Shown here: in pieces, positions 5,658 through 41,627 of the stretch
Layout: each line of letters begins with the position of its first letter
Position numbering within the stretch: the stretch's first letter is position 1
Source of the DNA: an uncultured Candidatus Binatia bacterium
Lineage (GTDB): Bacteria > Desulfobacterota > Binatia > Bin18
NCBI GenBank assembly: GCA_965242795.1
Contig: OZ251505.1
Span: forward strand, 3,265,587 to 3,329,586
Reading direction: 5' to 3'
Length of the DNA stretch: 64,000 nt
Translations under genes and position numbers: made by a program
Notes under the pieces: model-generated
Told to the model about the DNA's origin: nothing
What the model saw: the letters and a program-made list of their open reading frames with translations, nothing else
The model's database searches: none

Positions 5658-5749
5658 TGTGACTGCTCCCCCCTTCGTGGAACCCGGATGCTCGTATCAG
5701 TTCTTTCACCTGCCTGCTACCTATCCGAAAGGGTATCCCGACTGCGGTA

Positions 5750-5975
5750 GCGATTGCCCAACGGCGGGCGGCTGTGGTGGCGGTGAGGCCGCTTCGAGGA
5801 GGCGACAGGTATGCGCATTCCTGCGTGCGTTCCATTCATGGCGTTCGTGGCGTTGTGGGCCGGCTCGACGATCTGGCCGAGACCGGCCGGCGCCGAACAA
5901 CCGGCCGTGGCGGCGTCCGAGGCCGCGCTTTCGGCGGGGGAGATTCTGGTGCAGAGATCATCAGGCTGCCGTGCA
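5750..5975. repeat. Direct repeat copy 1 (~225 bp, ~85% identical to 8216-8440) covering the qhpA promoter-proximal region and 5' coding end
   Basis: ttgcccaacggcgggcggctgtggtggcggtgaggccgcttcgaggaggcgacaggtatgcgcattcctgcgtgcgttccattcatggcgttcgtggcg… versus the near-identical stretch at 8216 onward. Confidence 0.7.
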
Positions 5976-6005
5976 CCGGAGGAGGCGGTCGAGCGCTGGA
6001 TGTGA
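5811..6005 (+). pseudogene. Truncated duplicate of the qhpA 5' end (signal peptide plus first CxxCH-like region, then divergence and stop)
   Basis: MRIPACVPFMAFVALWAG…AGEIL.QR.SGC matches the QhpA N-terminus (8273..) for ~55 aa. The ~50 bp upstream, including RBS gaggaggcgacaggtATG, is also duplicated. The reading frame decays after the CSGC motif. Confidence 0.6.
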
Positions 6006-6049: not shown

Positions 6050-8200
6050 GGCGAGCTACGGCTGGTTAAGTTTGCATAGCAGACGGATGCAGTACACGGA
6101 ACATAGGATGCCCCTCTCTATTTACGGAAAGGAAGATCCACTTCCCAAAGGCGACCTTCATGGGTGTATTGGCCGGATACAATTCGCCTGATGTCGTACG
6201 CTGGAAGTGGGACGACCAATATACACTTGTTGTCAAATGCCATACCGCAGGAAGGGAATTTGAAAACCAAATCGTCAAAGTTGTAGGATCTGTACCGCGA
6301 CGGTAAGGCTGCGTGGTCAGCTGGATAAACATTTAGAAAGAATCCCGGCTTTTTGTCGGATAGGACACACGGTTCCCTAACGTACACTAACGTTCTATTG
6401 TGGAGATAAATATCGAAATGAGAGTGTGCTAAGGGTTTTCTAGAGAGAACTGCCTGGTATATGTTTTGAAAATTGACTGCGTGAAACCGAGCATAGGAAT
6501 TTGCTAAATGCAACAGACCGATACCGCCTACAACGACGAAAAAGGACACAATAAGCTGAGGCGTCCGAACAAAATTCGTCATCTGATAGGTGTGTAGAAA
6601 ATTTAATATTCGCTGCCGAACGCCCGTTAATAAGCATCGACGAATTGAACTCACGATTATTTCGCTGCTTATGGCGGACTGCGGCCCGAGTCGGCGACTT
6701 ATCTTATGTGACGTTGATACTTGAATCCAGAACAGCTCTAGAGAATATAAAAAAAGGAAAAGGGCAAGAAGATATTCGTCCCACTCCTCCAACCTGGCTC
6801 CTTTACGAATCAATTGCCCAATGAATGTGGTTGTTACGAAAAAACCACTCGTTACACAGGCAATGAATAGCTTATGCTTTTTAAAAATCAGCGCAAAGAG
6901 AAAAAGAAGGAGTATGCCTATTTTGTCCGGGGTGAAAAGGAATCTTACCCAGAGAGAAAGTAGGCCAAGACTATCGATCGGATTGTTCTCGTTGATGGCA
7001 ACCCCAGAAAAATTCGCTACCAGAAACCCCAATATTAGGAAAATAGATGGGAGAGGAATTCCGAAGAACGTATTTTTTTTGCCAAAGAAAGCGAGGATGG
7101 TCATGAGAACCATGATCCGCATTCCATCTACTCTGACGAGGGTATGAATTTTATGTAGTACCCTGATATTGTGTAAATTAGTTTCATTCTGGGTATTTAT
7201 GTCCGCCCAAAAATCGGGCATCGGGTAGTTGAGAATACGGTGCCCCCAACTGATTTCTTCTCCGGTGGCATAGAAAAGCGCTATGCCCCCTAAGATGTAG
7301 AGCCGTCGCTGAAAGGGCCTTTGTTCCATTCGGGCGGTGGCGAATAAGAAGATGCTCCCCAGAAACAGCCAGACCGATGTCAGATTTTCGACCCAAGAAT
7401 CTTCTTTGGCTGAATACAGGAAGCAACATGGGTCGCTATATATAAGATAGTGAAAGAGGACAGAATTCAAACACAAGCAAAGGTAAGCGAGTGTAGGGAT
7501 CGTGTTTGCTCGGAGAGTAAAAGCAGAAAATTGGCCATGATCTTTTTCCATCTTTTGACCCTTTGTGGATCTGCTTCGGGTCTTTCAACGTCCGTTTTCT
7601 CGGCCTGAAATTGTCGGAGCCGACCGTCGCCACTATCGGGGGCTACCCTCGTTCCCCGAAGCTACATGTATCGTCTGTGTATGGCAACTGGCGCGGAACC
7701 CCAGGACGGCTCCCAATGTCTGTTGAACCGGCAACCGTCATGCACTACCGGTGCGATTGCCTCGTTCTGAGCGGCTGTGGTCAGGGTCAAGCCACTTTAA
7801 GGAGTCACCGGGCATGCGTATGCTAGTGTGCTTTCCGTTTGTGGTGTCGGAGAAGGGCTAGGCTGATGGTCCGACCGAGACCGTCCCAGAGCCGAAGCAA
7901 CAGGTTATGGCAGCCCGAGTTCGTCTTCCGGGCATCGGAGATTCTGGAGGGAAGATGTTCAGGCTGGTCAAGGCGGGGCTGGCGCGGGTTCTTCTCTCAA
8001 GCGGATGCCGTACGGACCCCGGCTGTGCTATTCTTTTCCTGCTGATAGAGGGAACTCTACTTCTTAGAGACGACCCTCGGAGATGAACTGGTCAGATACG
8101 GTCCACTAATATCGTACTTTGGAAGTGACACAACCGCTACTTAAGCGAACCAAGGCAAACTTCTAGTTCCCTTTCAATGTTCATCAGGCGGCGCCTGCGG
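6050..8200. other. Low-GC (~40%) insertion island between the duplicated qhpA 5' fragments
   Basis: Abrupt compositional shift relative to ~65% GC flanks. Carries one large membrane-protein gene and ~650 bp of non-coding sequence, and is bounded by the 225-bp direct repeats. Confidence 0.6.
6118..7551 (-). CDS. Polytopic integral membrane protein (at least 10 predicted TM helices), function unknown; encoded on the low-GC island
   Basis: 477-aa ORF, AT-rich codon usage, long hydrophobic stretches (…LFLGSIFLFATA…, …ILGFLVANFSGVAI…, …LLALFLFLYSLELFW…). No recognisable catalytic motif. Confidence 0.55.
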   Translation of the reverse strand: MEKDHGQFSAFTLRANTIPTLAYLCLCLNSVLFHYLIYSDPCCFLYSAKEDSWVENLTSVWLFLGSIFLFATARMEQRPFQRRLYILGGIALFYATGEEISWGHRILNYPMPDFWADINTQNETNLHNIRVLHKIHTLVRVDGMRIMVLMTILAFFGKKNTFFGIPLPSIFLILGFLVANFSGVAINENNPIDSLGLLSLWVRFLFTPDKIGILLLFLFALIFKKHKLFIACVTSGFFVTTTFIGQLIRKGARLEEWDEYLLALFLFLYSLELFWIQVSTSHKISRRLGPQSAISSEIIVSSIRRCLLTGVRQRILNFLHTYQMTNFVRTPQLIVSFFVVVGGIGLLHLANSYARFHAVNFQNIYQAVLSRKPLAHSHFDIYLHNRTLVYVREPCVLSDKKPGFFLNVYPADHAALPSRYRSYNFDDLVFKFPSCGMAFDNKCILVVPLPAYDIRRIVSGQYTHEGRLWEVDLPFRK

Positions 8201-8215
8201 GATCATTGGAAGAGG

Positions 8216-8440
8216 TTGCCCAACAGCGGGCGGCTATGGTAGCGGTGAGGCCGCTTTGAGGAGGCGACAGGTATGCGCATTCCAGCGTGCGTTCCATTTA
8301 TGGCGTTCGTGGTGTTGTGGGTCGGCTTGGTGATCCGGCCGGGATCGGCCGGCGCCGAACAACAGGCCGCGACGGCGTCCGATGTCGCGCTTCCGGCGGG
8401 GGAGATTCTGGAGCAGCGCTGTTCGGGCTGCCATGCGTCG
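8216..8440. repeat. Direct repeat copy 2 (functional qhpA upstream region and 5' end)
   Basis: See copy 1 at 5750-5975. Confidence 0.7.
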
Positions 8441-9949
8441 GAACAGGAGGGCGGGCCGCTGGACGCGATTGCGGAACAGCGCAAGACGCCCGAAGGCTGG
8501 AGCATGACGCTCAGCCGTATGGCGCGGACCCACGGCGTGGAGTTGCAGGCAGGCGAGGCGCGCATCCTGGTCAAGTATCTGAGCGACCGCTACGGGCTGG
8601 CGCCCGCGGAGGTCGAGCCCTACCGCTTCATTCTGGAGCAGCGCAACATTCGTACTTCGGAGGAGGTTCCCGCACCGCTGAAAGCCGGCTGCGTACAGTG
8701 CCATACGTACGCGCGAACCGCGTTGCAGTACCGCACCGAAGATGCGTGGCTGCGGCTGGCGGATACCAAAGTCGCCATCATGGCGAATATCGGCAGCGAG
8801 ACGGCTTCGGCCGGGTTGCTGCGCGACTATTGGTACGACGATGCGAAGAACAACGCGTTTCCGTATCTTGCTGAGCATCAACCGTTCGAGACCGAAGCGT
8901 GGACGGCGTGGCAGACCAAGAAGAAGCCGGACTATGCCGGTCGCTGGGTGGTAGTCGGCCACGATCCCGGCCGCGGCGGGGAATACACCGGGACGCTGCG
9001 TCTCGACGCGCTCGGGAACGACCGCTACCGCGGCGAATTTTCGTATGCCTTCGCGGACGGCTCGCAACTGACGGGCACGACGACCGGCACGGTGTACACC
9101 GGCTTTCAGTGGCGTGGGGTGGCGCGGACGGACTCCGATGACGGAGACGACGCCCCACAGCGCGAGATCATGTTCGCGTCGGAAGACGGCGGCACGCTGG
9201 TCGGGCGGCGCTTGCTGACCAATTTCGGCGACCTCGGCATGGACGAGACGTGGTACCGCCGTACAGACCGTGCGCGGCTGCTCGCGGTGAATCCCCGGAG
9301 CGTTCGGACGGGAAGCACCCAGACCGTCAGGCTTTTCGGGACGGGTTTTTCCGAGACGTTGCTGTCGGACGGAGGGCTGACGTTCGGCGATGGGGTCACG
9401 GTGTCGTCCGCGCGGATCGAGGGCGACACCGCGGTCGTCGCCGAGGTGTCGGTCGAGGCCGGCGCGACGGAGGGGCTACGCAAGGTCGGGATCGGCGGCG
9501 CGGACGGGCAAGGCCAAGTCGCAGTGTACGACACGGTGGATTACGTCCGGGTTTTCCCGGAGCGCGGGTTCGCGCGCCCGGGCGGGATTCGGACCCCGAA
9601 GATTTTTCAGCAGTACGAGGCCGTCGGCTACGCCAACGGGCCGGACGATAAGAAAGGAACGGACGACGACGTGCGGCTGGGCCGGATCTCACCGATCCGC
9701 TGGAATCTCGAAGAGTACGTCAAACGCCCGAACGACGACGACGTCCGCTACGTCGGTTCCATCGATCAGCACGGCCTGTTTCTGCCCAACGTGGACGGGC
9801 CGAACGCGAACCGGCATCTGATGGAGGGCAACGTCGGCGACGTGTGGGTCGAGGCGTGGTACGCGCCCGACGGCGCGAAACGGCCGATGGGCGCGCGGGC
9901 GCATCTGCTTGTCATGCCGGCCAAATTCATCTTTCCCCCGATAGAATAG
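8273..9949 (+). CDS. qhpA: Quinohemoprotein amine dehydrogenase alpha subunit (N-terminal di-haem cytochrome c domain plus beta-rich domains)
   Basis: Signal peptide, then two haem c sites CSGCH and CVQCH within the first 150 aa. 558 aa in total. The next gene starts 2 nt after the stop (TAG…ATG). Followed by rSAM/SPASM (qhpD), a small Cys/Trp-rich gamma subunit (qhpC) and a beta-propeller protein (qhpB). Confidence 0.85.
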   Translation: MRIPACVPFMAFVVLWVGLVIRPGSAGAEQQAATASDVALPAGEILEQRCSGCHASEQEGGPLDAIAEQRKTPEGWSMTLSRMARTHGVELQAGEARILVKYLSDRYGLAPAEVEPYRFILEQRNIRTSEEVPAPLKAGCVQCHTYARTALQYRTEDAWLRLADTKVAIMANIGSETASAGLLRDYWYDDAKNNAFPYLAEHQPFETEAWTAWQTKKKPDYAGRWVVVGHDPGRGGEYTGTLRLDALGNDRYRGEFSYAFADGSQLTGTTTGTVYTGFQWRGVARTDSDDGDDAPQREIMFASEDGGTLVGRRLLTNFGDLGMDETWYRRTDRARLLAVNPRSVRTGSTQTVRLFGTGFSETLLSDGGLTFGDGVTVSSARIEGDTAVVAEVSVEAGATEGLRKVGIGGADGQGQVAVYDTVDYVRVFPERGFARPGGIRTPKIFQQYEAVGYANGPDDKKGTDDDVRLGRISPIRWNLEEYVKRPNDDDVRYVGSIDQHGLFLPNVDGPNANRHLMEGNVGDVWVEAWYAPDGAKRPMGARAHLLVMPAKFIFPPIE

Positions 9950-14498: not shown

Positions 14499-15209
14499 AT
14501 GGCACACGCGCAATCGATCGTTGACGTCATCTGCGAGCGGGCGCTGGAAATGGCGCCGCAGGTCCCGTGGCTGGTCGAACCGTTGACGCCCGGCCGCGGG
14601 CAGGCGTTCATCTTGCAGCACGTTCTGCGCAACCGCTGGTTCAGCGGCGTGATCCGCCCCGCGTGGCTGAGCCGCTGCCCGGATTTGGCCCTGGTCCGCA
14701 AGACCATCGGCCAGATGCGCGAGGAACTGGTCTTCGACGACGAGATTTCACAGCCGCATACCACGCTGCTGTGGGAGATGGGCCGCAACGTCGGGCTGAC
14801 GGACGAGGAGATGGACGCGACGCGCGCCATGCCGCTGGTGGACGTGTCCCTCAACGTGATGGAGAACATCGCACGCACGCGGCACTGGGTGGCCGGCTGG
14901 CTGTCCACGTCTGTGGACGAGTTCATTCTGACGGCCATGCCCGGCCGGCACAATTTCCGGCCCGAAGCGTGGCAGCAGGCGTACGGTCTCAGCGACGCAC
15001 AGGTGTTCTTCTTCAGCTACCACACCCGCGCCGACGACGATCACGCCGGCCGCAAGGTGTGGGAGCCGATTGCGCGCCACGTGACGAGCGAGGCCGACCG
15101 CCGCGAAGTTCTTGAGGGGATGGACCTCGCACTCACCGCAAGCAAGCTCTTCTACCAAGGCGTGTGCGAACTCGGCGACCGGATCGACGCGGAGCGCGCC
15201 GCGGCCTAG
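14499..15209 (+). CDS. Haem-oxygenase-like fold protein (TenA/PqqC/'iron-containing redox enzyme' family)
   Basis: All-alpha composition with conserved acidic/His positions (…EEMDATRAMPLVDVSLNVMENIARTRHW…FFSYHTRADDDHAG…). Start placed at MAHAQSIV, which has an RBS aggaaagcgcATG. Confidence 0.5.
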   Translation: MAHAQSIVDVICERALEMAPQVPWLVEPLTPGRGQAFILQHVLRNRWFSGVIRPAWLSRCPDLALVRKTIGQMREELVFDDEISQPHTTLLWEMGRNVGLTDEEMDATRAMPLVDVSLNVMENIARTRHWVAGWLSTSVDEFILTAMPGRHNFRPEAWQQAYGLSDAQVFFFSYHTRADDDHAGRKVWEPIARHVTSEADRREVLEGMDLALTASKLFYQGVCELGDRIDAERAAA

Positions 15210-15239
15210 TCCCCACGGTTCGTTGCGGAGGGATGGGTT

Positions 15240-15410
15240 CCTTGGTTCTCAGCCAAGGCACCGCAAACCCGGGGACCTTCCCACCCCAAGTTCGTTGAGC
15301 TTGTCGAAACGAACCCCGATGTTACCTCGGCCCTCGCACCCCATCCCTAACCCTTCGCCCTTTGACACCCTTCGGCACCCTCAAGCCACCTCAAACTTAG
15401 GGACCATAGG
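15240..15410. repeat. Dispersed repeat family ('PFDKLR' element), copy 2
   Basis: ggggaccttcccaccccaagttcgttgagcttgtcgaaacgaaccccgatgttacc…cccttcgccctttgacacccttcggcaccctcaagcc…cttagggacc; compare 1180-1290 and 46290-46440. Confidence 0.55.
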
Positions 15411-15522
15411 GATTGCCCCTGCACCCGAATACAGATGTTCTGCGGGAGAAATTCTTCACCCTGATACGCTCCCGAACAATCCGGGACGCCATACGCCGCT
15501 GCACCGAGGAGGTCCGCTATCC

Positions 15523-16659
15523 ATGTCCGAACCCGAACGCCGCTTTGCGATCATCACCGACGAGGCTCTGGATTCGCTCCGCAAACTCATCGGCGTACCC
15601 ATCGAGGACACGCTGGAGCCGTGGTGCTACGAGGCCACGCGAGACAACATCCGCCACTACGCGCACGGCATCGGCGACGACAACCCGCTGTGGTGCGACC
15701 CGGACTACGCGGCGCAAGCGCGCTACGGCACCATCGTCGCGCCGCCGTCCTTCGTTTTTCCGCTCAACCGGGTGCTGAGCGGCTACGTGGGCGGGCTGCC
15801 GGGGATTCACGCCATGTGGGCGGGCGCGGACATCACCTGGCACGCCCCGGTCTTCCGCAACGACAGCTTCACGACCCGCGCCTATCTGAAGGACCTCGTC
15901 GAACACCAGACCCGCTTTGCCGGGCGGGCCATCCAGCAGATCTATCACGTCGATTACTACAACCAGCGTGGCGAACTGGTCATCGAGGGCGAAAGCTGGT
16001 GTTTCCGCACCGAGCGGGATACCGCCCGCGAGCGCGGCACCAAATATACCGCGGTGAAGCAGCAGGCGCCCGTGTCGTACACACGTGAACGGATCGCCGA
16101 GATCTTCGACCGGTACGCGCAAGAGGAAATCCGCGGCGCCACGCCGCGCTACGTCGAGGACGTGCGCGTCGGAGACAAGCTGCCGGGTATGGTCAAGGGG
16201 CCGATGACGGTCACCGGTTTCATCGCCTACGCGCAGGGCTGGGGCGGACTGTACATCCGGGCCAACCGCTTGGCCTGGAAGCAGTTGCAGAAACACCCGG
16301 GGCTCGGCATTCCCGACCGCTTCGGGATTCCCGACGTGCCCGAGCGCGTGCACTGGGACACCGACTTGGCCCAGCGCGTGGGGACGCCCGAAGCCTACGA
16401 CTACGGCCCGGAACGCACTTCGTGGATGACCCATCACCTGACCGACTGGATGGGCGACGCCGGCTTCCTGCGCAACATTTCTGTGAAGATTCGCCGTCAC
16501 AATCCGGTCGGCGACACGCTGTTCATCACCGGCGAAGTTACGAAGATATTCGAGGCCGACGGCCACCCCTGCGTCGAAGTCGAACAGCGCGCCGAAAATC
16601 AGGACGGCGAACTGTCCGTGCTCGGCACGGGTGTGATGCGCCTACCGTCGCGGGGGTAA
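15523..16659 (+). CDS. Double-hotdog MaoC-like acyl dehydratase (FAS1-like dehydratase N-domain plus MaoC C-domain)
   Basis: Start MSEPERRFAIITDEALDSL… with RBS gaggaggtccgctatccATG. ~378 aa with two hotdog halves. The upstream portion of track ORF 15112.. is repeat-derived and was rejected. Confidence 0.75.
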   Translation: MSEPERRFAIITDEALDSLRKLIGVPIEDTLEPWCYEATRDNIRHYAHGIGDDNPLWCDPDYAAQARYGTIVAPPSFVFPLNRVLSGYVGGLPGIHAMWAGADITWHAPVFRNDSFTTRAYLKDLVEHQTRFAGRAIQQIYHVDYYNQRGELVIEGESWCFRTERDTARERGTKYTAVKQQAPVSYTRERIAEIFDRYAQEEIRGATPRYVEDVRVGDKLPGMVKGPMTVTGFIAYAQGWGGLYIRANRLAWKQLQKHPGLGIPDRFGIPDVPERVHWDTDLAQRVGTPEAYDYGPERTSWMTHHLTDWMGDAGFLRNISVKIRRHNPVGDTLFITGEVTKIFEADGHPCVEVEQRAENQDGELSVLGTGVMRLPSRG

Positions 16660-16682
16660 TCTCGACTGAAGGAGCGGAACCC

Positions 16683-17735
16683 ATGCTCGAAAGTGTCCGT
16701 ATACGGAACTTCCGCAACCTGGTTGACCTTCAGATCGGAGGACTCGATCGTGTGAACCTGTTTACCGAGCAGAACAACTCGGGCAAGACGACGCTGCTCG
16801 AGGCATTGTTCTTGTTGGCTGGTGGGGGAAACCCCAGCTTGCTCCTGAGCATAAATTCTTTTCGTGGAATCGACACGACCGGCGGCACAACGACCACAGT
16901 TCGAGAAGTTTTATGGAAGCCCTTGTTCTGCACCCTCGATACGAAGCGAGTCATCAGGATTGAAGCTCACCGTCTCTCTCATGAGTCCTTCTCTCTCAGT
17001 ATCTCGCTCGACCAACCCGACACGATTCGGCTTCCACTCGGCCAGTCAAGTAGATCCCTAGCGGTTGGAGCTTTGAATGAAGATTCTCTTCTGTTTCGCT
17101 TCGATAGTAAGGAAGCAGGACATATAGAGGGTCGGATGTATGTGACCGTCGACGGAATCAAGATTGAGCAACCTACGGAAAATCTCTCGTTTCCGGCTGT
17201 CTTTCTTTCGTCTCGGATCGGGAATCTTCAGGAAGACGCCGTGCGCTTGGGACAGCTTCGGCAACACAAGCAAGCAAGCTCGGTGATGGAAGCTCTGAGA
17301 GTTGTCGAACCAAAACTGCAAAGTGTCGAGGATAATTCCGCAAGTGGAGGTCCCATGATTTGGGAGGATGTCGGTCTTTCCGAACTCGTGCCCTTGCCGG
17401 CTATGGGCGAGGGGATGACGCGGGTTGCCAGGCTGATTCTGGCAATCTCGTCAGCGCCGGGTGGTCTTGTTCTTATTGACGAGATCGAAAACGGACTGCA
17501 CCACTCGATCTTGTCCAAGGTCTGGAAAGCGGTCGATCAGGCGGCAAAGAATTTCGACACGCAGGTGGTTGCGACTACGCACAGTTACGAATGTCTGGAG
17601 GCGGCCCACGAAGCGTTCGGGAAAGACGGGGTTCGTCTTTATCGGCTCGAAGCCGAGAATGACGAAAATCGTTGTGTGACGTATGAACCAGAGGCGATCG
17701 AGGCGGCCATCTATCACAATTTGGAGGTGCGCTAA
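16683..17735 (+). CDS. ABC-type AAA ATPase (AAA_21/AAA_15-like, OLD/AriA-like N-terminal ATPase)
   Basis: MLESVRIRNFRNLVDLQIGG…FTEQNNSGKTTLLEALF (Walker A, SMC/RecF-like N-terminus) … LVLIDEIENGLHH (Walker B / D-loop) … ATTHS (H-loop). ~50% GC versus ~65% flanks. Confidence 0.75.
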   Translation: MLESVRIRNFRNLVDLQIGGLDRVNLFTEQNNSGKTTLLEALFLLAGGGNPSLLLSINSFRGIDTTGGTTTTVREVLWKPLFCTLDTKRVIRIEAHRLSHESFSLSISLDQPDTIRLPLGQSSRSLAVGALNEDSLLFRFDSKEAGHIEGRMYVTVDGIKIEQPTENLSFPAVFLSSRIGNLQEDAVRLGQLRQHKQASSVMEALRVVEPKLQSVEDNSASGGPMIWEDVGLSELVPLPAMGEGMTRVARLILAISSAPGGLVLIDEIENGLHHSILSKVWKAVDQAAKNFDTQVVATTHSYECLEAAHEAFGKDGVRLYRLEAENDENRCVTYEPEAIEAAIYHNLEVR

Positions 17736-17737
17736 GT

Positions 17738-18280
17738 ATGCCTTCGCCTCGACCCATTCAGAAGCTAAAGCAGCTTCTGGTCGAAGGGAAAGATCAACAA
17801 AATTTTTTCGAAGCGTTTCTCGATCATATTCATGATAGAAACGTACAAGTCCAAGATTTTGGCGGGGTTCAAGAGTTGCGCAGATTTTTGCTCGCATTCG
17901 TCAATATGCCAGAATTTGGTACAGTTGAAAGTGTTGGCATTGTGCGCGACGCAGAAGATGATGCAAATGGGGCGTGGCAAAGCGTTCGATCAGCACTCGA
18001 AAACGTGAAGATGCCAGTTCCAGAGCACGCTGGACAACGCAACGTCGGGAAGCCAGGTGTAAGCGTGTTCATTCTGCCCGGTGACAACCAACCGGGCATG
18101 CTAGAAACCCTGTTGAACCAATCATTCGCAGGCGAACCGGTGAACGGCTGCATCATACGTTCTTTCAGTGCGTCGAGGATCTGCCGAACCAGCGGACTCA
18201 GCGACCCGATAAGGCACGCGCGCACGCCTATCTTGTCACCCGGCCAGAACCCCATGTTTCGGTCGGCGTGGCGGCGATGA
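17738..18280 (+). CDS. Small Toprim-like protein (LLVEGKD motif), partner of the upstream ATPase; possible DUF4276/DUF3226-type
   Basis: Starts 2 nt after the ATPase stop. N-terminus …KQLLVEGKDQQNFFEAFL… resembles the Toprim EGxD acidic motif of OLD/Gabija/PARIS effectors. The C-terminal ~45 aa in this frame are Arg-rich low complexity, while the +1 frame reads more protein-like (…HAYLVTRPEPHVSVGVAAMKGYWDLAHSVF…), so a frameshift near ~18135 is possible. Confidence 0.5.
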   Translation: MPSPRPIQKLKQLLVEGKDQQNFFEAFLDHIHDRNVQVQDFGGVQELRRFLLAFVNMPEFGTVESVGIVRDAEDDANGAWQSVRSALENVKMPVPEHAGQRNVGKPGVSVFILPGDNQPGMLETLLNQSFAGEPVNGCIIRSFSASRICRTSGLSDPIRHARTPILSPGQNPMFRSAWRR

Positions 18281-18426
18281 AGGGATACTGGGATCTGGCC
18301 CATTCGGTGTTCGGCCCTCTCCGCTCTTTTTTGACGGAATTGTAAAACCTCTCGCCAGTCCGATAGGCTAGAACACCAATAAATTACATACAACGCGGTC
18401 GTGAAGTCAGGCTTCCCTCATCATAT

Positions 18427-18475
18427 CTGCGCAAGCTGGTATCCATGTCCTGGATTCCCGCTTCCGCGGGAATGA
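18427..18475. repeat. REP-like palindromic element (family gtcattcc-[stem-loop]-ggaatcc), copy 1
   Basis: …ggtatccatgtcctggattcccgcttccgcgggaatgacg… with the perfect inverted repeat ttcccgc-ttcc-gcgggaa. Spurious translations of this element give 'IPAFAGMT'-type peptides. Confidence 0.6.
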
Positions 18476-18533
18476 CGAGCTGACGGGATCGTCAAGCAGG
18501 CCATTCCCAAACATGAGCCGCAGCAGGGTACCG

Positions 18534-30217: not shown

Positions 30218-30283
30218 GGGGACCCCCCACCGGCTCGACTACGGGCTGACGCCCTTGTCTCGCCGACTCCCCCTCACCCTTCG
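30218..30283. repeat. GC-rich 62-bp element (solo copy) shared with the hsdS-embedded DUF559 cassette terminus (40833-40900, ~95% identical)
   Basis: ggggaccccccaccggctcgactacgggctgacgcccttgtctcgccgactccccctcaccc versus gacgaccccccaccggctcgactgcgggctgcgcccttgtctcgccgactccccctcaagggggg. Confidence 0.65.
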
Positions 30284-30289
30284 ACCATC

Positions 30290-33200
30290 TCAAGACACCG
30301 CCGGCTCGGGGACTCGGGAGGCGACGGCCCAGCCCGCGGACAGGACTTCGGCCTGCTCCAGGACGGTGCGCGTGGCCTGCTCCCGCTTGTCGGGCGGATA
30401 ACCGTGTTTGCGCAGAATGCGCTTGACCAGGACGCGCAACTGCGCGCGCACGTTCTCGCGCAGCGTCCAGTCGATGGTGACGTTGCGGCGCACCGTCTCG
30501 ACCAGTTCGCGCGCAATGGCGCGTAGGGGTTCGTCGCCGAGCACGCGGACCGCGCTGTCGTTGGTCTCCAGCGCGTCGTAGAAGGCGATCTCGTCCTCCG
30601 ACAACCCGAGCGCGGCGCCGCGGGCGTTCGCCGTGCGCAGGTCGCGGGCGAGGTGGATCAACTCTTCGATCACCTGCGCGGCTTCGACGGCGCGGTTCCG
30701 ATAGCGGCGCAAGGTCTGCTCCAACATGGCGCTGAAGGTGCGCGCCTGGACCACGTTCCGGCGCCCGCGGGCGGTGATCTCGCCCTTCAGGAGTTTCTGC
30801 AGCAGATCGACGGCCAGGTTGCGCTGCGGCATGCCCCGAACCTCGGCCAGAAAGTCGTCGGAGAGGACCGATACGTCGGGCTTGTCCAGCCCGGCCGCGG
30901 CGAAGACGTCGGTCACGCCCGCGGACGCGACCGCGCGCGAGATGATCTGCCGGACGGCGCGGTCCATCTCGTCCGCGGGCCGTGCCGCGCCCGGCGCGCG
31001 TTTCGCCAGTACCGCCCGCACCGCCTGGAGGAAGCCCACGTCGTCGCGGATGCGCAGCGCGTCCGCGTGGGGTACCGCCAGCGCGAACGCGTGCGACAAG
31101 GCGTGCACCGCCTGCAGGCAGCGCTCCTTGCCGTCGGGCTGCGCCAGCACGTGTTCCTGCGCCGCGGGCAACAGGCCCAGCCGCTGCGCCGGCGTGCCGG
31201 CCGCCCACGCCGCCCGGTCGAAGCCGTGGAACAGGCCGCAGCAGACCTCGTATTTTTCCAACAGCACCGCGACCGCGTCGGCCTGGTCCAGCGCGGCGCG
31301 CCCGGCGCCACCGCCCTCCGTATAGGTCGCCAGCGCGCGGCGGAGTTCGTGGGCCACGCCCAGATAATCGACCACCAGCCCGCCCGGCTTGTCCCGGAAC
31401 ACGCGGTTGACCCGGGCGATGGCCTGCATCAGCGCGTGGCCGCGCAGCGGTTTGTCCAGATACAGGGTGTGCAGGCTGGGCGCGTCGAAGCCGGTCAGCC
31501 ACATGTCGCGCACCAGCACCATGCGCAGCGGGTCCGCGGGGTCGCGGAAGCGGGCGGCCAGCGCCTCGCGCCGGGGTTTGGTGCGGATGTGCGGCTGCCA
31601 GTCGGGCGGGTCGGCCGCGGCGCCGGTCATGACGATCTTGAGTGCCCCCTGTGCGTCGTCCGGGGCATGCCAGTCCGGGCGCAGGCGCACCAGTTCCCGG
31701 TACAGGGCGATGCAGATGCGCCGGCTCATGCACACGACCATCGCCTTGCCGTCGAGCGCTGTGAGTCGCTGCTCGAAGTGCGTGACCAGGTCGCGGGCCA
31801 CGAGCGCCAGCCGCTGTTCGGCGCCGACCACCGCTTCGAGCTGCGCCCAGCGCGACTTGAGCTTTTCCTTGCGCGCCGTCTCCTCGCCCTCGGTCGCTTC
31901 CTCGAAGTCGGAGTCGATGCTCGGGCGTTCGCGTTCGTCCAGGGCGAGCGCGGCCAGCCGGCTTTCGTAGTAGATCGGGACCGTGGCCCGGTCTTCGACC
32001 GCGCGCTGGACGTCGTAGATGCTGATGTAGTCGCCGAACACGGCGCGCGTGTTGGCGTCGCGCAATTCGACCGGCGTGCCGGTGAAGCCCACGAAGGCGG
32101 CGTGCGGCAGGGCGTCGCGGATGTGGCGTGCGTAGCCGTCGATGAAGTCGTACTGGCTGCGGTGCGCTTCGTCGGCGATCACCACGATGTTGCGGCGCTC
32201 GGACAACGCCGGGGTCGGTGCGGGGTGCGACTCCCGTTCCTCGGACGTATCGGACCGGAGGCGGGCGAGACCCCCGCGTGCCCGGGAGGGAGGCGCGGCC
32301 GGCGCTTCCGGAAAGAATTTCTGGATGGTGGTGAAGATGACGCCGCCGGACGCCACGGCGAGTTTGGCGTGCAGGTCGGCGCGGCTGTCCGCCTGGACCG
32401 GCGGCTGGCGCAACAGGTCCCGGCAGCGCGCGAAGGTGGCGAACAACTGGTCGTCCAGGTCGTTGCGGTCGGTCAGCACCACCACGGTCGGGTTCCGCAG
32501 GGCCGGCTCGCGGACGATGCGCCCGGCGTAGAACGCCATCGTCAGGCTCTTGCCCGACCCCTGCGTGTGCCAGACCACGCCGATGCGGCGGTCGCCGGGT
32601 TCGCCGCCCGGCTTGCGTCCCGCCTCGTAGCGGCCGCCGGCCCCTTCGCCGACGGTGTCGGCCTCCTGTTGCAATTCGGTCGCGCGCAGGGTTTCGGCGA
32701 CCGCGATCTCGACCGCGTGGAACTGGTGGTAGCCCGCCATTTTCTTGACGGGCGCGCCGTCGTCCTCGAAGACGATGAAATCGCGCACCAGCGCCAGAAA
32801 GCGGGCCGGCGCGCACACGCCCTTCAGCAGCACTTCGAGTTCGGGCCGTGCCGGATCGGCCAGCGCGGCGCCGGCAATCGTGCGCCACGGCTTGAACCAC
32901 TCGCGCCCCGCGGTCAGCGTGCCGATGCGCGCCTCCACTCCGTCGGACACGATCAGCGCGGCGTTCAGGGCGAACAGGGCGGGCAACTCGGCCTTGTAGG
33001 TCTGCAACTGGTGCCACGCGGTCCAGACGGTCGCGTCCTCGTCCGCGGGGTTCTTCAACTCGACGATGCCGAGCGGCAGGCCGTTCACGAACAACATCAC
33101 GTCGGGCCGCCGCTCGCGTTGCTGCTCCACCACGGTGAACTGATTGACCGCCAGCCAGTCGTTCTCGTCCGGCTCATCGAAGTCGAGCACGCGCGCCTGC

Positions 33201-36689: not shown

Positions 36690-36750
36690 CCTCCGATCAC
36701 CTCCCCCTAGTCCCTGAGATGGTCGAAGGATGAGGGGGAGTGATAGGAAG
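36690..36750. repeat. Near-perfect 12-bp inverted repeat (atcacctccccct…agggggagtgat) in a 410-bp intergenic gap; shares the 'gggggagtgat' motif with 40885 and 40968
   Basis: gatcacctccccctagtccctgagatggtcgaaggatgagggggagtgatagg. Confidence 0.4.
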
Positions 36751-39662: not shown

Positions 39663-41627
39663 CTAGCTTTTATCGCCTGATGGTTCATGGACATCCCTCT
39701 CGAGATTTGAAACTGGATATTCTAACTCATCTGAAATAAGTCTCAGTAGCAACGTATCTCGTACTGAAGTTAATGTGCAAATTTCCTTCTCGTGTAACAA
39801 AATCGTTTTATGGATTGGATGGCTCATCTTCTCAAACCATCTTATTAGATTTGATCCCGGATTCAAAATGGACAAATTACTAAAGGTGGACTTGTTCATA
39901 TTCCCAAATACAGACCCTCCACTTCCTCCCGCTAGGACCTCGGCCGATAAGCCTCTACATGCCCAATACAAATATTTGATCATCCGCCTGTCATTAGGAA
40001 CTATACTGTTGATTTGCTGGTTAGTGTGAGTCTCTCTATGGTTGATGACTACAAGCCCGGGTGTAGCTATGCAACTCATCGACATACTACCTGGGGGCAA
40101 GGCTTTCGTAGGCTGAGATGAAGCGCCTGCGTATGAAAGCATAGTGTGGGTGTGCATTACATATATCCTTTTATGCATATCAGGGATTTTCAAGAATGGG
40201 ACGTCCGCTCCGTAGAAGGCCGGATTGTGTGTATCTGGGGTTTTTCCAGTAACTATTGTTCCAAACTCTTTCAATTTCTTCAAGGCCCATCTTCTTGGGA
40301 TCGGACCGACAGCAGATTTCTCGAACCCATCCGGGAACAGGGCCACAACCTCCGGGTCCATCCCGTCGAGATAGGCACGGGCGCGTTCGACCGTCCACGC
40401 CGTGGTTCCCTTCCTATCATTCCCCCCTTGAGGGGGAGTCGCAGTCGCCAAGCCTTCAGGCGCCGGCGACTGCGGTGGGGGGTCCCCCGCTACCGCCTCG
40501 TACACCCGCTCCAACACCCCGAAACAGTTCTCGAAGACCTCCGTATTCCAGAAGCGGAGCACGCGGTAGCCCCGCGCCCGGAGAAAGGCGTCGCGCTTCT
40601 CGTCCCGGCTCGTCTGTTCCGCATGCTGGCCGCCGTCGAGTTCGATGAGCACCTTGCGGGACAGACAGGCGAAATCGACGATGTACGGACCGATGGGTTG
40701 TTGGCGGCGGAACCGGTAGCTGCCGAGTTGTTTGTTGCGGAGGTAGTGCCAGAGGAGTCCTTCGGCGTCGGTGCGGTTGCGGCGGAGGGCGCGGGCGGCG
40801 GTCAAGGCGCGACGGGAGTAGCCGCGGCGGACGACCCCCCACCGGCTCGACTGCGGGCTGCGCCCTTGTCTCGCCGACTCCCCCTCAAGGGGGGAGTGAT
40901 GAGACGGGGAAACCGGCGGGGAGGAGAGTCTCCCATGGGCCGTGGCCGTTTCGTCTCCTGCTTGCAACGGGGAGTGATGGGATGAGGCACGGCGCTTGAG
41001 GGCGGCTTTGGCGTGGACGGGGTCGAAATCGACGAACCAGGACTTGAACAGCGCCCGCGCCATATCCTCCAGCGTGGCGTTCAGGCGGCGGTTCAGGGCG
41101 ATCTTGTCGTCCAGCGTGCCGAGGACGTGGGCGATGCGGTGTTGCTCCGGGAGCGGCGGCAGCCGGAGTTCCAGCCGCGCGATGTCGTCGGGCCGGATGG
41201 ACGGATAGGCGGAGACGCTGTGCTCGGCGATGGTGTGCAGCCGCTCGACGACATGGCCTTGCGCCAGAAACCAGTAGAGGAAGTCCGTATGTGCCACGCC
41301 GGCCTTGCCCCGGATGACGGCGAAGGCGGTCGAGACCAGCAGATTGTCCGGCGGGTCTTTCAGCAGGCCGAAGTGGCGCTGGTCCGGGCGCACGGTCGAA
41401 TACACGATGTCGCCCGGCTGCACCTTGCGGCGCGCCCGACTCGGAATCTTGTCGGTCCCCGGCACCAGGCGGCGGATGGTACCAACGCGATTGTCGGTGA
41501 CGTTGCCGGTATCGAGATAGTGGATGAACGGCCACGCCTCTTTCGGCGAATACGTGGCGTCGTTGATGACCGCGCAGTCGCCCAGGGTCACGGTGCGCCA
41601 CTGAACCGTATTCGATACGGAAGCCAT
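39663..41627 (-). CDS. hsdS: Type I restriction-modification specificity subunit HsdS with an in-frame ~200-aa DUF559 (Vsr-like endonuclease) insertion in the central conserved region; low-GC TRD2
   Basis: TRD1 plus central conserved helix (…LPPLPEQHRIAHVLGTLDDKIALNRRLNATLEDMARALFKSWFVDFDPV…). Then the insert with a DUF559 core (…LLWHYLRNKQLGSYRFRRQQPIGPYIVDFACLSRKVLIELDGGQHAEQTSRDEKRDAFLRARGYRVLRFWNTEVFEN…). Then resumption (…ARAYLDG…) and TRD2. 654 aa versus ~400-450 typical. Confidence 0.8.
   Translation of the reverse strand: MASVSNTVQWRTVTLGDCAVINDATYSPKEAWPFIHYLDTGNVTDNRVGTIRRLVPGTDKIPSRARRKVQPGDIVYSTVRPDQRHFGLLKDPPDNLLVSTAFAVIRGKAGVAHTDFLYWFLAQGHVVERLHTIAEHSVSAYPSIRPDDIARLELRLPPLPEQHRIAHVLGTLDDKIALNRRLNATLEDMARALFKSWFVDFDPVHAKAALKRRASSHHSPLQAGDETATAHGRLSSPPVSPSHHSPLEGESARQGRSPQSSRWGVVRRGYSRRALTAARALRRNRTDAEGLLWHYLRNKQLGSYRFRRQQPIGPYIVDFACLSRKVLIELDGGQHAEQTSRDEKRDAFLRARGYRVLRFWNTEVFENCFGVLERVYEAVAGDPPPQSPAPEGLATATPPQGGNDRKGTTAWTVERARAYLDGMDPEVVALFPDGFEKSAVGPIPRRWALKKLKEFGTIVTGKTPDTHNPAFYGADVPFLKIPDMHKRIYVMHTHTMLSYAGASSQPTKALPPGSMSMSCIATPGLVVINHRETHTNQQINSIVPNDRRMIKYLYWACRGLSAEVLAGGSGGSVFGNMNKSTFSNLSILNPGSNLIRWFEKMSHPIHKTILLHEKEICTLTSVRDTLLLRLISDELEYPVSNLERDVHEPSGDKS
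40414..40900 (-). mobile_element. Inverted-repeat-bounded DUF559 cassette inserted in-frame into hsdS (miniature selfish element candidate)
   Basis: tccccccttgagggggagt at 40414-40432 and its inverted counterpart gactccccctcaaggggggagtgat at 40868-40892 flank the DUF559-coding segment. The 5' flank carries the 62-bp GC-rich element also found at 30218-30283. The flanks translate as HSPL(Q/E)GE mini-repeats inside HsdS. Confidence 0.4.

What the first reader, a model, noticed from the sequence alone, without database searches (positions are those of the whole stretch)
16683..18280. Low-GC ABC-type ATPase plus Toprim-like small protein pair (split OLD/PARIS-like module)
A 350-aa AAA_21/AAA_15-type ATPase (Walker A GKTT, D-loop LIDEIENGLHH) is followed 2 nt later by a ~180-aa protein. 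The small protein's N-terminus carries LLVEGKD, the acidic Toprim signature used by OLD, Gabija GajA and PARIS AriB nucleases. The pair has ~50% GC in a 65% GC background and sits next to a REP element. The small protein's annotated C-terminus is low complexity, whereas the +1 frame reads protein-like, so a frameshift (sequencing error or inactivation) is possible.
Basis: partly seen in the sequence, partly recalled or inferred. Interest (0 to 1): 0.6.

Follow-up and report, generated by a model that had tools for sequence, protein, structure and literature searches.

The report
Frameshifted ATPase–Toprim nuclease defence-candidate pair
This is a two-gene cassette (a Rad50-like ATPase and a small OLD-like Toprim nuclease of family DUF3226) of a catalogued but untested phage-defence candidate type, and its nuclease gene here carries a one-base deletion, so it is probably switched off.

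Summary
An intact 350-aa ABC ATPase gene (16683-17735) lies 2 nt upstream of a small gene starting at 17738. The pair has 53% GC, against 64% in the rest of the window.

The small protein is Pfam DUF3226. A confident model of an 85%-identical intact homologue has the four-strand Toprim layout. Its best solved-structure matches are the Toprim-plus-helical C-terminal regions of class 2 OLD nucleases. Its conserved residues line up with the OLD two-metal catalytic set.

The suspected frameshift is real in this sequence. One G is missing between 18154 and 18155. Restoring it gives a 202-aa protein that matches DUF3226 end to end. The shift removes invariant C145 and K159 and the whole helical domain.

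Both proteins match PADLOC's PDC-M38 (A and B), an untested "phage defence candidate". The ATPase also matches an AbiLi model over its full length. All 82 related loci keep a full-length ATPase homologue just upstream of the DUF3226 match.

The cassette sits at the same chromosomal site in seven Binatia genomes. There it diverges much faster than its flanks and is a recombinant mosaic. A distant version is almost the only cargo of about 130 small Klebsiella plasmids.

Verdict: a new, probably inactivated member of a known kind (split ATPase-Toprim systems such as PARIS and AbiL). Moderate-to-low interest.

The parts
16669..16674 (+). Shine-Dalgarno-like AAGGAG, 8 nt before the ATPase ATG. It lies only 10 nt after the stop (16657-16659) of the upstream MaoC-like gene.
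   Evidence: sequence read directly
16683..17735 (+). Intact ABC (Rad50/SMC/OLD-type) ATPase gene, 350 aa; PDC-M38A / AbiLi-like
   Evidence: It keeps every column that is invariant in a 71-sequence alignment.
16773..16793 (+). Walker A / P-loop NNSGKTT
16866..17222 (+). Fast-evolving beta-rich insert of the ATPase (aa 62-180): candidate sensor or partner-binding region and a recombination segment
   Evidence: 53-72% nt identity to syntenic L001/L003 but 97-99% to L085. L001 has a 60-nt in-frame insertion here. Modelled as beta strands, with a low-confidence loop at 121-131.
17403..17420 (+). Signature-like motif MGEGMT
   Evidence: G242 and G244 invariant; M241, E243, M245, T246 at 90% or more
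17466..17504 (+). Walker B plus D-loop LVLIDEIENGLHH
   Evidence: D266, E267, E269, G271, H273 and H274 invariant
17574..17585 (+). H-loop TTHS
   Evidence: H300 and S301 invariant
17723..17727 (+). Shine-Dalgarno GGAGG inside the end of the ATPase gene, 10 nt before the DUF3226 ATG (translational coupling)
   Evidence: sequence read directly
17738..18154 (+). In-frame 5' part of the DUF3226 gene (codons 1-139): the Toprim core with E16/D19 (17774-17794), G43 (17858-17866), D71-A-E73 (17942-17956), E123-T124 (18095-18112) and C138 (18149-18151)
18154..18155 (+). Site of the 1-nt deletion. A G is missing: ATC|ATA in the window, ATC GAY in orthologues.
18155..18345 (+). Out-of-frame 3' part of the DUF3226 gene (codons 140-202 plus stop TAA 18343-18345). 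It encodes the helical domain with invariant C145 (18169-18171) and K159 (within 18205-18219), plus SVGVAA (18259-18276). It is read only if the missing base is restored.
18155..18280 (+). Aberrant 41-residue tail plus stop codon of the ORF as it stands (IIRSFSASRICRTSG...AWRR)
18426..18496 (.). REP-like ~70-nt element with the hairpin ATTCCCGC-N4-GCGGGAAT (18454-18473). It lies inside a ~140-nt stretch that is absent from the syntenic L001/L003.

Best explanation
This is a horizontally acquired two-gene operon of the ABC-ATPase plus Toprim-nuclease class (PADLOC candidate PDC-M38). It is most likely an anti-phage, toxin-antitoxin-like abortive-infection module.

Inferred mechanism, by analogy with PARIS, OLD and AbiL. 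The Rad50-like ATPase dimerises on ATP. Its variable beta-rich insert acts as sensor and scaffold and holds the DUF3226 nuclease inactive. A phage cue frees or activates the nuclease. The nuclease then uses an OLD-type two-metal site (E16/D19, D71-x-E73, E123/T124, K159) to cut nucleic acid: DNA as OLD does, or tRNA as AriB does.

In this genome the nuclease gene has lost one base at codon 140. The product lacks C145, K159 and the helical domain, so the module is probably inactive here. The loss is recent, because the ATPase and the out-of-frame remainder show no further decay.

Shown: the domain identities, the fold, the motif conservation, the strict gene pairing, the deletion, the mosaic evolution and the mobility. 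Inferred: the defence role, the sensor-effector logic and the substrate.
For: Identity.
- ATPase: AAA_21/AAA_15. AbiLi PDLC02336 at 2.2e-54 and PDC-M38A at 1.5e-53, both full length.
- ATPase fold matches: Rad50, SMC, PtuA, Thermus OLD, GajA, at E 1e-14 to 1e-11.
- Small protein: DUF3226 at 108 bits over profile positions 2-206 of 208 after repair. PDC-M38B at 4e-11.

Nuclease fold.
- Model pLDDT 96. Best PDB matches are the class 2 OLD C-terminal regions.
- D71 and K159 are invariant, and E16, G17, G43 and E123 are at least 90% conserved, across 122 diverse representatives.
- These positions correspond to the E400, D455 (first Asp of DxD), T506/E508 and K562 set of B. pseudomallei OLD (PMC6755086). 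D19 and E73, the counterparts of E404 and D457, are conserved within this subfamily.

Operon. 82 of 82 related loci have a full-length ATPase homologue just upstream of the DUF3226 match. The spacer is 2 nt with an internal SD.

Mobility and immune-like evolution.
- The pair has lower GC than its flanks in 63 of 78 loci.
- At the shared Binatia site the flanks are 79-96% identical in protein, but the ATPase is 55-74% and DUF3226 58-79%.
- The cassette is a segmental mosaic.
- The most frequent families among immediate neighbours are RM methylases, type I S subunits and ResIII.
- A distant version is almost the sole cargo of 4-kb ColRNAI Klebsiella plasmids.
- PDC-M38 was defined by embedding inside BREX, DISARM or type I RM systems.

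Frameshift. It is a net -1 against two orthologues, and the only net non-3n indel in coding sequence across the ~11-kb stretch compared. The repaired protein is 85% identical, without gaps, to an intact homologue.
Against: - No member of DUF3226 or PDC-M38 has been tested. No paper in the library mentions either name in its main text.
- The related HEC-01 ATPase+TOPRIM system gave no defence in assays.
- TM-scores to the OLD C-terminal regions are only 0.38-0.49, and the OLD-like_TOPRIM HMM hits are sub-threshold.
- The second acidic residue of the DxD motif is Glu, and it is not conserved in 90% of the wider family.
- In this window the cassette sits among metabolic genes, not in a defence island. 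There is no room for a promoter of its own in the 23-nt gap after the upstream gene.
- Most neighbours in other loci are housekeeping genes.
- The deletion could be an assembly error, in which case the module is intact.
Confidence: 0.6

Rival explanations
1. The cassette is intact in the organism. The missing base at 18154|18155 is a sequencing or assembly error or a minority variant, so this is a working PDC-M38-type system.
For: The sequence downstream of the shift still encodes every invariant residue. It is as similar to P0001 as the upstream part. The ATPase is fully intact. These are the signs expected of an artefact as well as of a very recent mutation.
Against: The deletion is not in a homopolymer (ATC[G]ATACG). 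Over ~11 kb compared with two orthologues it is the only net frame-breaking indel in coding sequence; the others are intergenic or compensated. No reads are available to settle it.
Confidence: 0.3
2. The pair is mainly a selfish addiction (toxin-antitoxin) module that stabilises plasmids and genomic islands. It is not an anti-phage system. The ATPase neutralises a toxic Toprim nuclease.
For: It is nearly the only cargo of about 130 small non-mobilizable ColRNAI Klebsiella plasmids. The gene disrupted here is the putative toxin, which is the loss a TA logic tolerates. PARIS itself behaves as a type II TA system (PMC13064643).
Against: TA and defence roles are not exclusive. The candidate was defined by embedding in BREX, DISARM or type I RM systems, and RM genes are its commonest neighbours. 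Fast divergence and segment shuffling of the ATPase insert fit selection by changing triggers.
Confidence: 0.15
3. It is a housekeeping DNA repair or recombination pair analogous to RecF (ABC ATPase) with RecR (Toprim), or it is functionally tied to the adjacent MaoC-like hydratase operon.
For: The best NCBIfam hit of the ATPase is RecF (3.5e-9), and Rad50 and SMC heads top the fold search. The ATPase starts 23 nt after the MaoC-like gene on the same strand, and this position is kept in seven Binatia genomes.
Against: The RecF and Rad50 sequence matches cover only the first ~45 residues. None of 54 other MaoC378 loci carries the pair. The pair occurs in dozens of unrelated contexts and phyla, with lower GC than its flanks, and on small plasmids. 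It evolves far faster than its flanks.
Confidence: 0.04
4. The frameshift is programmed (ribosomal frameshifting or phase variation) and regulates production of the nuclease.
For: The shift sits exactly between the Toprim core and the helical domain.
Against: There is no slippery heptamer or repeat at ATCATACG. All 82 homologous loci give a single unbroken DUF3226 match. Both orthologues carry the extra base.
Confidence: 0.01

Closest known systems
PADLOC PDC-M38 (phage defence candidate, multi-gene no. 38; Payne et al., bioRxiv 10.1101/2024.01.29.577857)
   Same: Both proteins hit its models: A at 1.5e-53 over the full length, B at 4e-11. They are adjacent, on the same strand, in A-then-B order.
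   Different: PDC-M38 is only a bioinformatic candidate from guilt-by-embedding, with no experimental test. This copy is not embedded in an RM or BREX system, and it is frameshifted. The B match is modest, so this is a distant subfamily.
AbiL (AbiLi + AbiLii) of Lactococcus
   Same: It is a two-gene ABC ATPase plus OLD-like Toprim system. The ATPase matches the PADLOC AbiLi model PDLC02336 end to end at 2e-54. AbiLii is also reported to superimpose on the OLD structure 6NJV (PMC13064643).
   Different: The second protein matches no AbiLii model at E up to 1. It is DUF3226. The AbiL mechanism is itself unknown.
PARIS (AriA + AriB)
   Same: It has a split ATPase sensor plus a Toprim effector. 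The AriA models match at 3e-27. The logic is TA-like.
   Different: AriB is a DUF4435 protein (my own knowledge). Here the AriB model reaches only E 0.0098, and DUF4435 hits 1 of 65 members at 0.075. AriA in the PDB is matched only at E 0.012, over the first ~45 residues. The ATPase is about 110 residues shorter (350 aa against the 464-aa AriA chains). The trigger (Ocr) and the target (tRNA-Lys) are not known to apply.
Class 1/2 OLD nucleases and Gabija GajA
   Same: The ATPase is of the same kind. The nuclease matches their Toprim-plus-helical-domain regions best, and the catalytic residues correspond.
   Different: In OLD and GajA the two domains are fused in one polypeptide; here they are separate genes. 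No UvrD-like or GajB partner gene is linked to the pair: none appears in the window's ORFs, though DEAD-helicase neighbours occur in a few loci. DUF3226 has an invariant Cys pair (C138, C145) in its helical domain that I do not know from OLD (not checked against OLD sequences). TM-scores are below 0.5.
HEC-01 (Hma-embedded ATPase + TOPRIM)
   Same: It has the same two-gene architecture. The HEC-01A models match at 2e-17.
   Different: The Toprim partner family is different. HEC-01 showed no defence in the published assays.

Membership tests
Pfam DUF3226 (PF11536) | Score above the gathering cut-off (27 bits) over the whole profile | tested here: met
   As it stands: 76.5 bits, profile positions 2-131 of 208 only. 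With the missing G restored: 108.1 bits, positions 2-206 of 208.
Toprim superfamily | Four-stranded parallel beta-sheet alternating with helices | tested here: met
   Model of the 85%-identical P0001, pLDDT 96: b11-15, a17-30, b36-40, a44-55, b65-71, a76-89, b107-113.
Toprim superfamily | Conserved Glu at the first strand, Gly after b2, and a DxD motif after b3 (motifs as listed in PMC6755086) | tested here: inconclusive
   E16 and G43 are at least 90% conserved, and D71 is invariant, in 122 diverse sequences. The motif is D-A-E, not DxD, and E73 falls below 90%.
OLD-like Toprim nuclease domain | Fold match to the OLD C-terminal region (Toprim plus helical domain) | tested here: inconclusive
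OLD-like Toprim nuclease domain | Pfam OLD-like_TOPRIM (PF20469) above threshold | tested here: not met
   11 of 65 members hit it, with best E 0.03.
OLD-like Toprim nuclease domain | Metal-B ligands at the start of the helical domain (T506/E508) and a catalytic Lys (K562) in the helical domain | tested here: inconclusive
   E123-T124 (E123 at least 90% conserved) at the start of helix 122-128, and invariant K159 in helix 157-166, are in the equivalent places by order. No residue-level superposition could be made.
PADLOC PDC-M38 | A protein and B protein both match, adjacent on one strand | tested here: met
   A (PDLC04611): 1.5e-53, residues 1-350 against 1-383 of 383. B (PDLC04624): 3.9e-11. 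The spacer is 2 nt.
AbiL | AbiLi-type ATPase | tested here: met
   PDLC02336: 2.2e-54, profile positions 1-340 of 340.
AbiL | AbiLii-type partner | tested here: not met
   No AbiLii model is among the PADLOC hits of the small protein at E up to 1.
PARIS | AriB (DUF4435) effector | tested here: not met
   AriB model E 0.0098, residues 13-71 only. DUF4435 hits 1 of 65 members at 0.075.
PARIS | AriA ATPase | tested here: inconclusive
   The generic AriA models match at 3e-27 and 4e-18. The solved AriA chains 8ux9 and 8v45 are matched only at E 0.012, over the N-terminal ~45 residues.
OLD / Gabija GajA | ATPase and Toprim fused in one polypeptide | tested here: not met
   These are two ORFs separated by a stop codon and 2 nt. 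A separate ATPase match upstream of the DUF3226 match is seen in 82 of 82 loci.
Rad50/SMC/RecF-type ABC ATPase (as opposed to transporter ABC) | Walker A, signature-like motif, Walker B/D-loop and H-loop present, with the fold closest to Rad50/SMC heads | tested here: met
   The motifs are invariant in 71 sequences. Foldseek top hits are Rad50, SMC, PtuA, OLD and GajA. Transporter families appear only at E about 0.1 or higher.
Anti-phage defence system (functional) | Protects against phage when expressed | not testable with these tools
   No experimental report was found for DUF3226 or PDC-M38.

The most novel reading that the evidence does not exclude
DUF3226-type pairs are a functional but mechanistically distinct ATPase-Toprim immune system. 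It would differ from PARIS, AbiL and OLD in three ways:
- an invariant Cys-x6-Cys pair in the nuclease helical domain, possibly a metal or redox switch;
- a beta-rich ATPase insert in place of a coiled coil;
- an unusually active exchange of sensor and effector segments among co-resident MAGs of phyla that I recognise as sponge-associated.
The system would be compact enough to be the sole cargo of 4-kb plasmids.
Probability: 0.2. Interest if true: 0.55.

Novelty: new member of a known kind. Interest (0 to 1): 0.35.

Why it matters
It gives the uncharacterised family DUF3226 a concrete, testable role: an OLD-like two-metal Toprim nuclease that is always paired with a compact Rad50-like ATPase. 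The family has about 4,600 cluster representatives at 50% identity.

It adds independent comparative support for the untested PADLOC candidate PDC-M38:
- strict pairing in 82 of 82 loci;
- lower GC than the flanks;
- RM genes as the commonest neighbours;
- fast mosaic evolution at a fixed chromosomal site;
- carriage as nearly the only cargo of small plasmids.

It also identifies intact versions suitable for testing (L001, L003, and the Klebsiella plasmid pair).

For this genome the practical message is small. The copy is probably a recently inactivated defence gene, or an assembly error that should be checked.

Tried and rejected
- Sequence searches of the PDB found nothing for DUF3226, either as a single sequence or as a 65-sequence profile. 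They found nothing for the single ATPase sequence either. Only the ATPase profile gave matches, limited to the N-terminal P-loop region.
- Literature searches for 'DUF3226' and 'PDC-M38' returned no papers. PDC-M38 appears only in a supplementary table.
- An exact-protein look-up of the window ATPase found no record.
- A search for an 'empty site' through MaoC378 homologues in metagenomes returned only distant, non-syntenic loci. It showed 0 of 54 with the pair but did not define insertion borders.
- No flanking direct or inverted repeats convincingly bound the cassette. The window has no tRNA and no Rfam hit. There is no convincing promoter or terminator for the pair.
- Programmed frameshifting and a RecFR-like repair role were considered and rejected (see the rival explanations).
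Full report
**1. What is in the sequence**

The + strand carries an ORF at 16683-17735 that encodes 350 aa.
- Its motifs are Walker A NNSGKTT (16773-16793), a signature-like MGEGMT (17403-17420), Walker B/D-loop LVLIDEIENGLHH (17466-17504) and an H-loop TTHS (17574-17585).
- An AAGGAG lies 8 nt upstream of the ATG. The upstream MaoC-like gene stops only 23 nt before it.
- The stop TAA (17733-17735) is followed by GT and then ATG at 17738. A GGAGG lies 10 nt upstream of that ATG. This arrangement fits translational coupling.
- The second ORF as it stands runs 17738-18280 (180 aa). It begins MPSPRPIQKLKQLLVEGKD.
- The pair has 52.9% GC, against 63.8% for the rest of the window.

**2. The frameshift**

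- Pfam matches the 180-aa product to DUF3226 (PF11536, 76.5 bits), but only to profile positions 2-131 of 208.
- The frame that starts at 17740 reads on as ...TFFQCVEDLPNQRTQRPDKARAHAYL...SFLTEL*.
- Homologues are about 202 aa long and read ...PVNxCIDxFFxCVEDLP... across the junction.
- The DNA alignment with the syntenic orthologue L001 puts a single-base gap in the window at TGCATC-ATACG.
- Against both L001 and L003 the net change at 18155-18160 is -1.
- Restoring a G between 18154 and 18155 gives a 202-aa protein with its stop at 18343-18345. It matches DUF3226 over positions 2-206 of 208 at 108 bits. It is 85% identical, without gaps, to the intact protein P0001.
- Over the ~11 kb that can be compared with L001 and L003, every other non-3n indel is either intergenic or compensated within the variable part of the ATPase.
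- The site is not a homopolymer.

I therefore lean towards a real and very recent mutation (about 0.65), with an assembly error as the alternative. "Recent" follows from two facts. The ATPase keeps all 36 columns that are invariant in a 71-sequence alignment. The out-of-frame part still encodes every invariant residue.

**3. What the proteins are**

*ATPase*
- Pfam: AAA_21 (1.5e-22) and AAA_15.
- PADLOC: AbiLi PDLC02336 at 2.2e-54 (1-340 of 340), PDC-M38A at 1.5e-53 (1-383 of 383), AriA at 3e-27, and weaker hits to HEC-01A, GajA and mad3.
- NCBIfam: only N-terminal matches to RecF, PtuA and MADS3. Transporter ATPases appear at E of about 0.1 or higher.
- A profile of 71 homologues matches PDB sequences only over the first ~45 residues. 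The hits are OLD 6p74, PtuA, Rad50, RecF, Eco8 OLD, GajA, and AriA at E 0.012.
- The AlphaFold model (pLDDT 84) is closest to Rad50 and SMC heads, then PtuA, Thermus OLD and GajA, at E 1e-14 to 1e-11.
- Where Rad50 has its coiled coil, this protein has a beta-rich insert (aa ~62-180).

*Small protein*
- A model of P0001 built on 65 homologues has pLDDT 96 and pTM 0.91. It shows b1-a-b2-a-b3-a-b4 followed by a helical domain at residues 122-201.
- The four best PDB matches are the C-terminal (Toprim plus helical) regions of the class 2 OLD nucleases of Xanthomonas and Burkholderia. Probabilities are 0.97-0.99 and E is 6e-4 to 5e-3. TM is only 0.38-0.49.
- Sub-threshold Pfam hits among members point the same way: OLD-like_TOPRIM in 11 of 65, Toprim_3 in 2, DUF4435 in 1.
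- Across 122 representatives that are 30-53% identical to P0001, the invariant positions are D71, G120, C138, C145 and K159. Positions conserved at 90% or more include E16, G17, G43, R70 and E123.

By order along the fold these positions correspond to the catalytic set described for B. pseudomallei OLD (PMC6755086):

| B. pseudomallei OLD | DUF3226 |
|---|---|
| E400 | E16 |
| E404 | D19 |
| D455-x-D457 | D71-A-E73 |
| T506/E508 | E123/T124 |
| K562 | K159 |

This is an inference from order and secondary structure. I could not make a residue-level superposition. The frameshift falls right after C138-I139, so the product here lacks C145, K159 and the helical domain. In OLD, truncating the helical domain impairs both nicking and processive cleavage.

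**4. A fixed two-gene module that moves**

- A scan of one genome per species found 80 loci. They are all MAGs, of Binatia, Latescibacterota, Poribacteria, Entotheonella, Nitrospirales, Dehalococcoidia, Caldilineaceae, Gemmatimonadota and others. From my own knowledge, these are largely phyla typical of marine-sponge microbiomes, and several bin names look like sponge studies. This was not verified here.
- In all 82 loci held at that point, a full-length ATPase homologue lies just upstream of the DUF3226 match.
- The pair has lower GC than its flanks in 63 of 78 loci, with means of 54% and 61%.
- Among 124 immediate neighbours in 66 non-syntenic loci, the commonest Pfam families are N6_N4_Mtase (6), the type I S subunit (4), DEAD (4), N6_Mtase (3) and ResIII (3). 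DUF1156, SWI2_SNF2, Fic and NYN occur twice each. Most other neighbours are housekeeping genes.
- The family has about 4,636 cluster representatives at 50% identity with E up to 1e-3. No match was found in phage genomes.
- 137 plasmid records hold a homologue, 133 of them from Klebsiella. These are mostly ~4.1-kb ColRNAI plasmids. In the one inspected (NZ_CP030721.1) the only annotated genes are Rop, an HTH protein and an ATPase+DUF3226 pair. That pair is 26% and 24% identical to the one here and is also PDC-M38A/B by PADLOC.

**5. Local history**

- The window is syntenic with Binatia MAGs. The order MaoC157, haem-oxygenase-like, MaoC378, ATPase, DUF3226, EthD, prolyl aminopeptidase-like hydrolase, methyltransferase is shared with L001 and L003.
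- The MaoC378 | pair | EthD arrangement is also found in L004, L005, L006, L020 and L026.
- Flanking proteins are 79-96% identical (MaoC378 87-96%). The ATPase is only 55-74% identical and DUF3226 58-79%.
- The divergence is segmental. Against L001 and L003, the ATPase insert is 53-72% identical in DNA, the ATPase C-terminus plus DUF3226 N-terminus 90-94%, and the DUF3226 helical domain 54-64%. Against contig L085 the pattern is reversed: 97-99% over 16774-17500, then 51-66% over 17614-17900.
- The cassette is therefore an old resident of this site that is reshuffled by recombination between alleles. That is the pattern expected of an immune gene.
- P0001, the closest DUF3226, sits in a different context.
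- None of 54 more distant MaoC378 loci has the pair. So the link with the MaoC-like gene is historical, not functional.

**6. The 'REP element'**

- The hairpin TTCCCGC-TTCC-GCGGGAA (18455-18472) is unique in the window.
- It lies in a ~140-nt stretch that L001 and L003 lack.
- About 70 nt around it (18426-18496) recur at 84-87% identity, inverted, just downstream of the cassette in L084 and L085. The bare hairpin occurs in L070 (twice) and L077.

A small palindromic repeat is therefore a reasonable reading. It is not evidence of how the cassette moved.

**7. Interpretation and comparison**

The best reading is a split ABC-ATPase/Toprim-nuclease module. It belongs to the untested PADLOC candidate PDC-M38. 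That candidate was defined by embedding within BREX, DISARM or type I RM systems (bioRxiv 10.1101/2024.01.29.577857).

It probably works like PARIS, AbiL or OLD: the ATPase acts as sensor and antitoxin, and the Toprim protein as nuclease effector (PMC13064643 and PMC12409363).

It is not a member of PARIS, because the AriB/DUF4435 test is not met. It is not a member of AbiL, because the AbiLii test is not met. It is not OLD or Gabija, because the domains are not fused. The defence role, the trigger and the substrate are all inferred. The related HEC-01 system gave no defence in published assays.

**8. Verdict**

- It is a new, probably inactivated member of a known kind.
- Interest is 0.35. 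A specialist would not be surprised by another ATPase-Toprim pair.
- The comparative picture may still make the family worth testing. That picture includes a role for DUF3226, the invariant Cys pair, mosaic evolution at a fixed site, spread across many phyla, and plasmids that carry almost nothing else.

Noticed in passing
window 18426-18496; L084 1375-1445; L085 1985-2031; L070 1182-1201 and 2335-2354; L077 813-832: A ~70-nt palindromic REP-like element (core ATTCCCGC-N4-GCGGGAAT). It lies just 3' of the cassette in three different contexts, inverted in two of them. It is absent from the syntenic L001/L003. It may travel with the cassette or mark a recombination or insertion spot.
   Followed up: partly
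window 16774-17500 vs L085; 17434-18030 vs L001/L003: The cassette is a recombinant mosaic. Different segments (ATPase insert, ATPase C-terminus plus nuclease N-terminus, nuclease helical domain) have different nearest relatives: 97-99% next to 51-66% nt identity.
   Followed up: partly
L083 (NZ_CP030721.1, 4119-bp Klebsiella pneumoniae plasmid) 828-2575: 133 Klebsiella plasmid records (137 plasmid records in all), mostly ~4-kb ColRNAI plasmids, hold a distant DUF3226 homologue. In the one inspected, the only annotated genes besides Rop and an HTH gene are an ATPase+DUF3226 pair (PDC-M38A/B by PADLOC).
   Followed up: partly
alignment A6, residues C138 and C145 of DUF3226 (window 18149-18151 and 18169-18171): Two cysteines seven residues apart on one helix of the nuclease helical domain are invariant across 122 diverse family members. 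No such pair is known to me in OLD nucleases (not checked against OLD sequences). It could be a metal or redox site.
   Followed up: no
loci L003-L082: The closest homologues (50-76% identity) are spread over many phyla that I know as sponge symbionts (Binatia, Latescibacterota, Poribacteria, Entotheonella, Nitrospirales, Dehalococcoidia and others). This suggests exchange within one habitat. The habitat was not verified.
   Followed up: no
window 15209-15466, with 15284-15342 matching 1211-1269 (inverted, 88%): A second interspersed repeat with a hairpin (GTTCGTTGAGCTTGTCGAAACGAAC) lies in a ~190-nt stretch upstream of the MaoC378 gene that L001/L003 lack. Other short interspersed repeats are at 30266-30292 / 36715-36741 and 40394-40441 / 40875-40922.
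   Followed up: no
window 5746-5994 and 8208-8456 (also 7771-7847): A 249-nt direct repeat (85% identity), with a third partial copy. It spans what look like gene starts (GGAGG...ATG). It was not examined.
   Followed up: no
L001 7618-7998: In the public gene calls the ATPase of the orthologous locus is listed only as a 126-aa C-terminal fragment. However, the full 370-aa ORF (6886-7998, stop included) is open. This looks like a gene-calling artefact caused by the long open frame upstream, not a truncation.
   Followed up: yes
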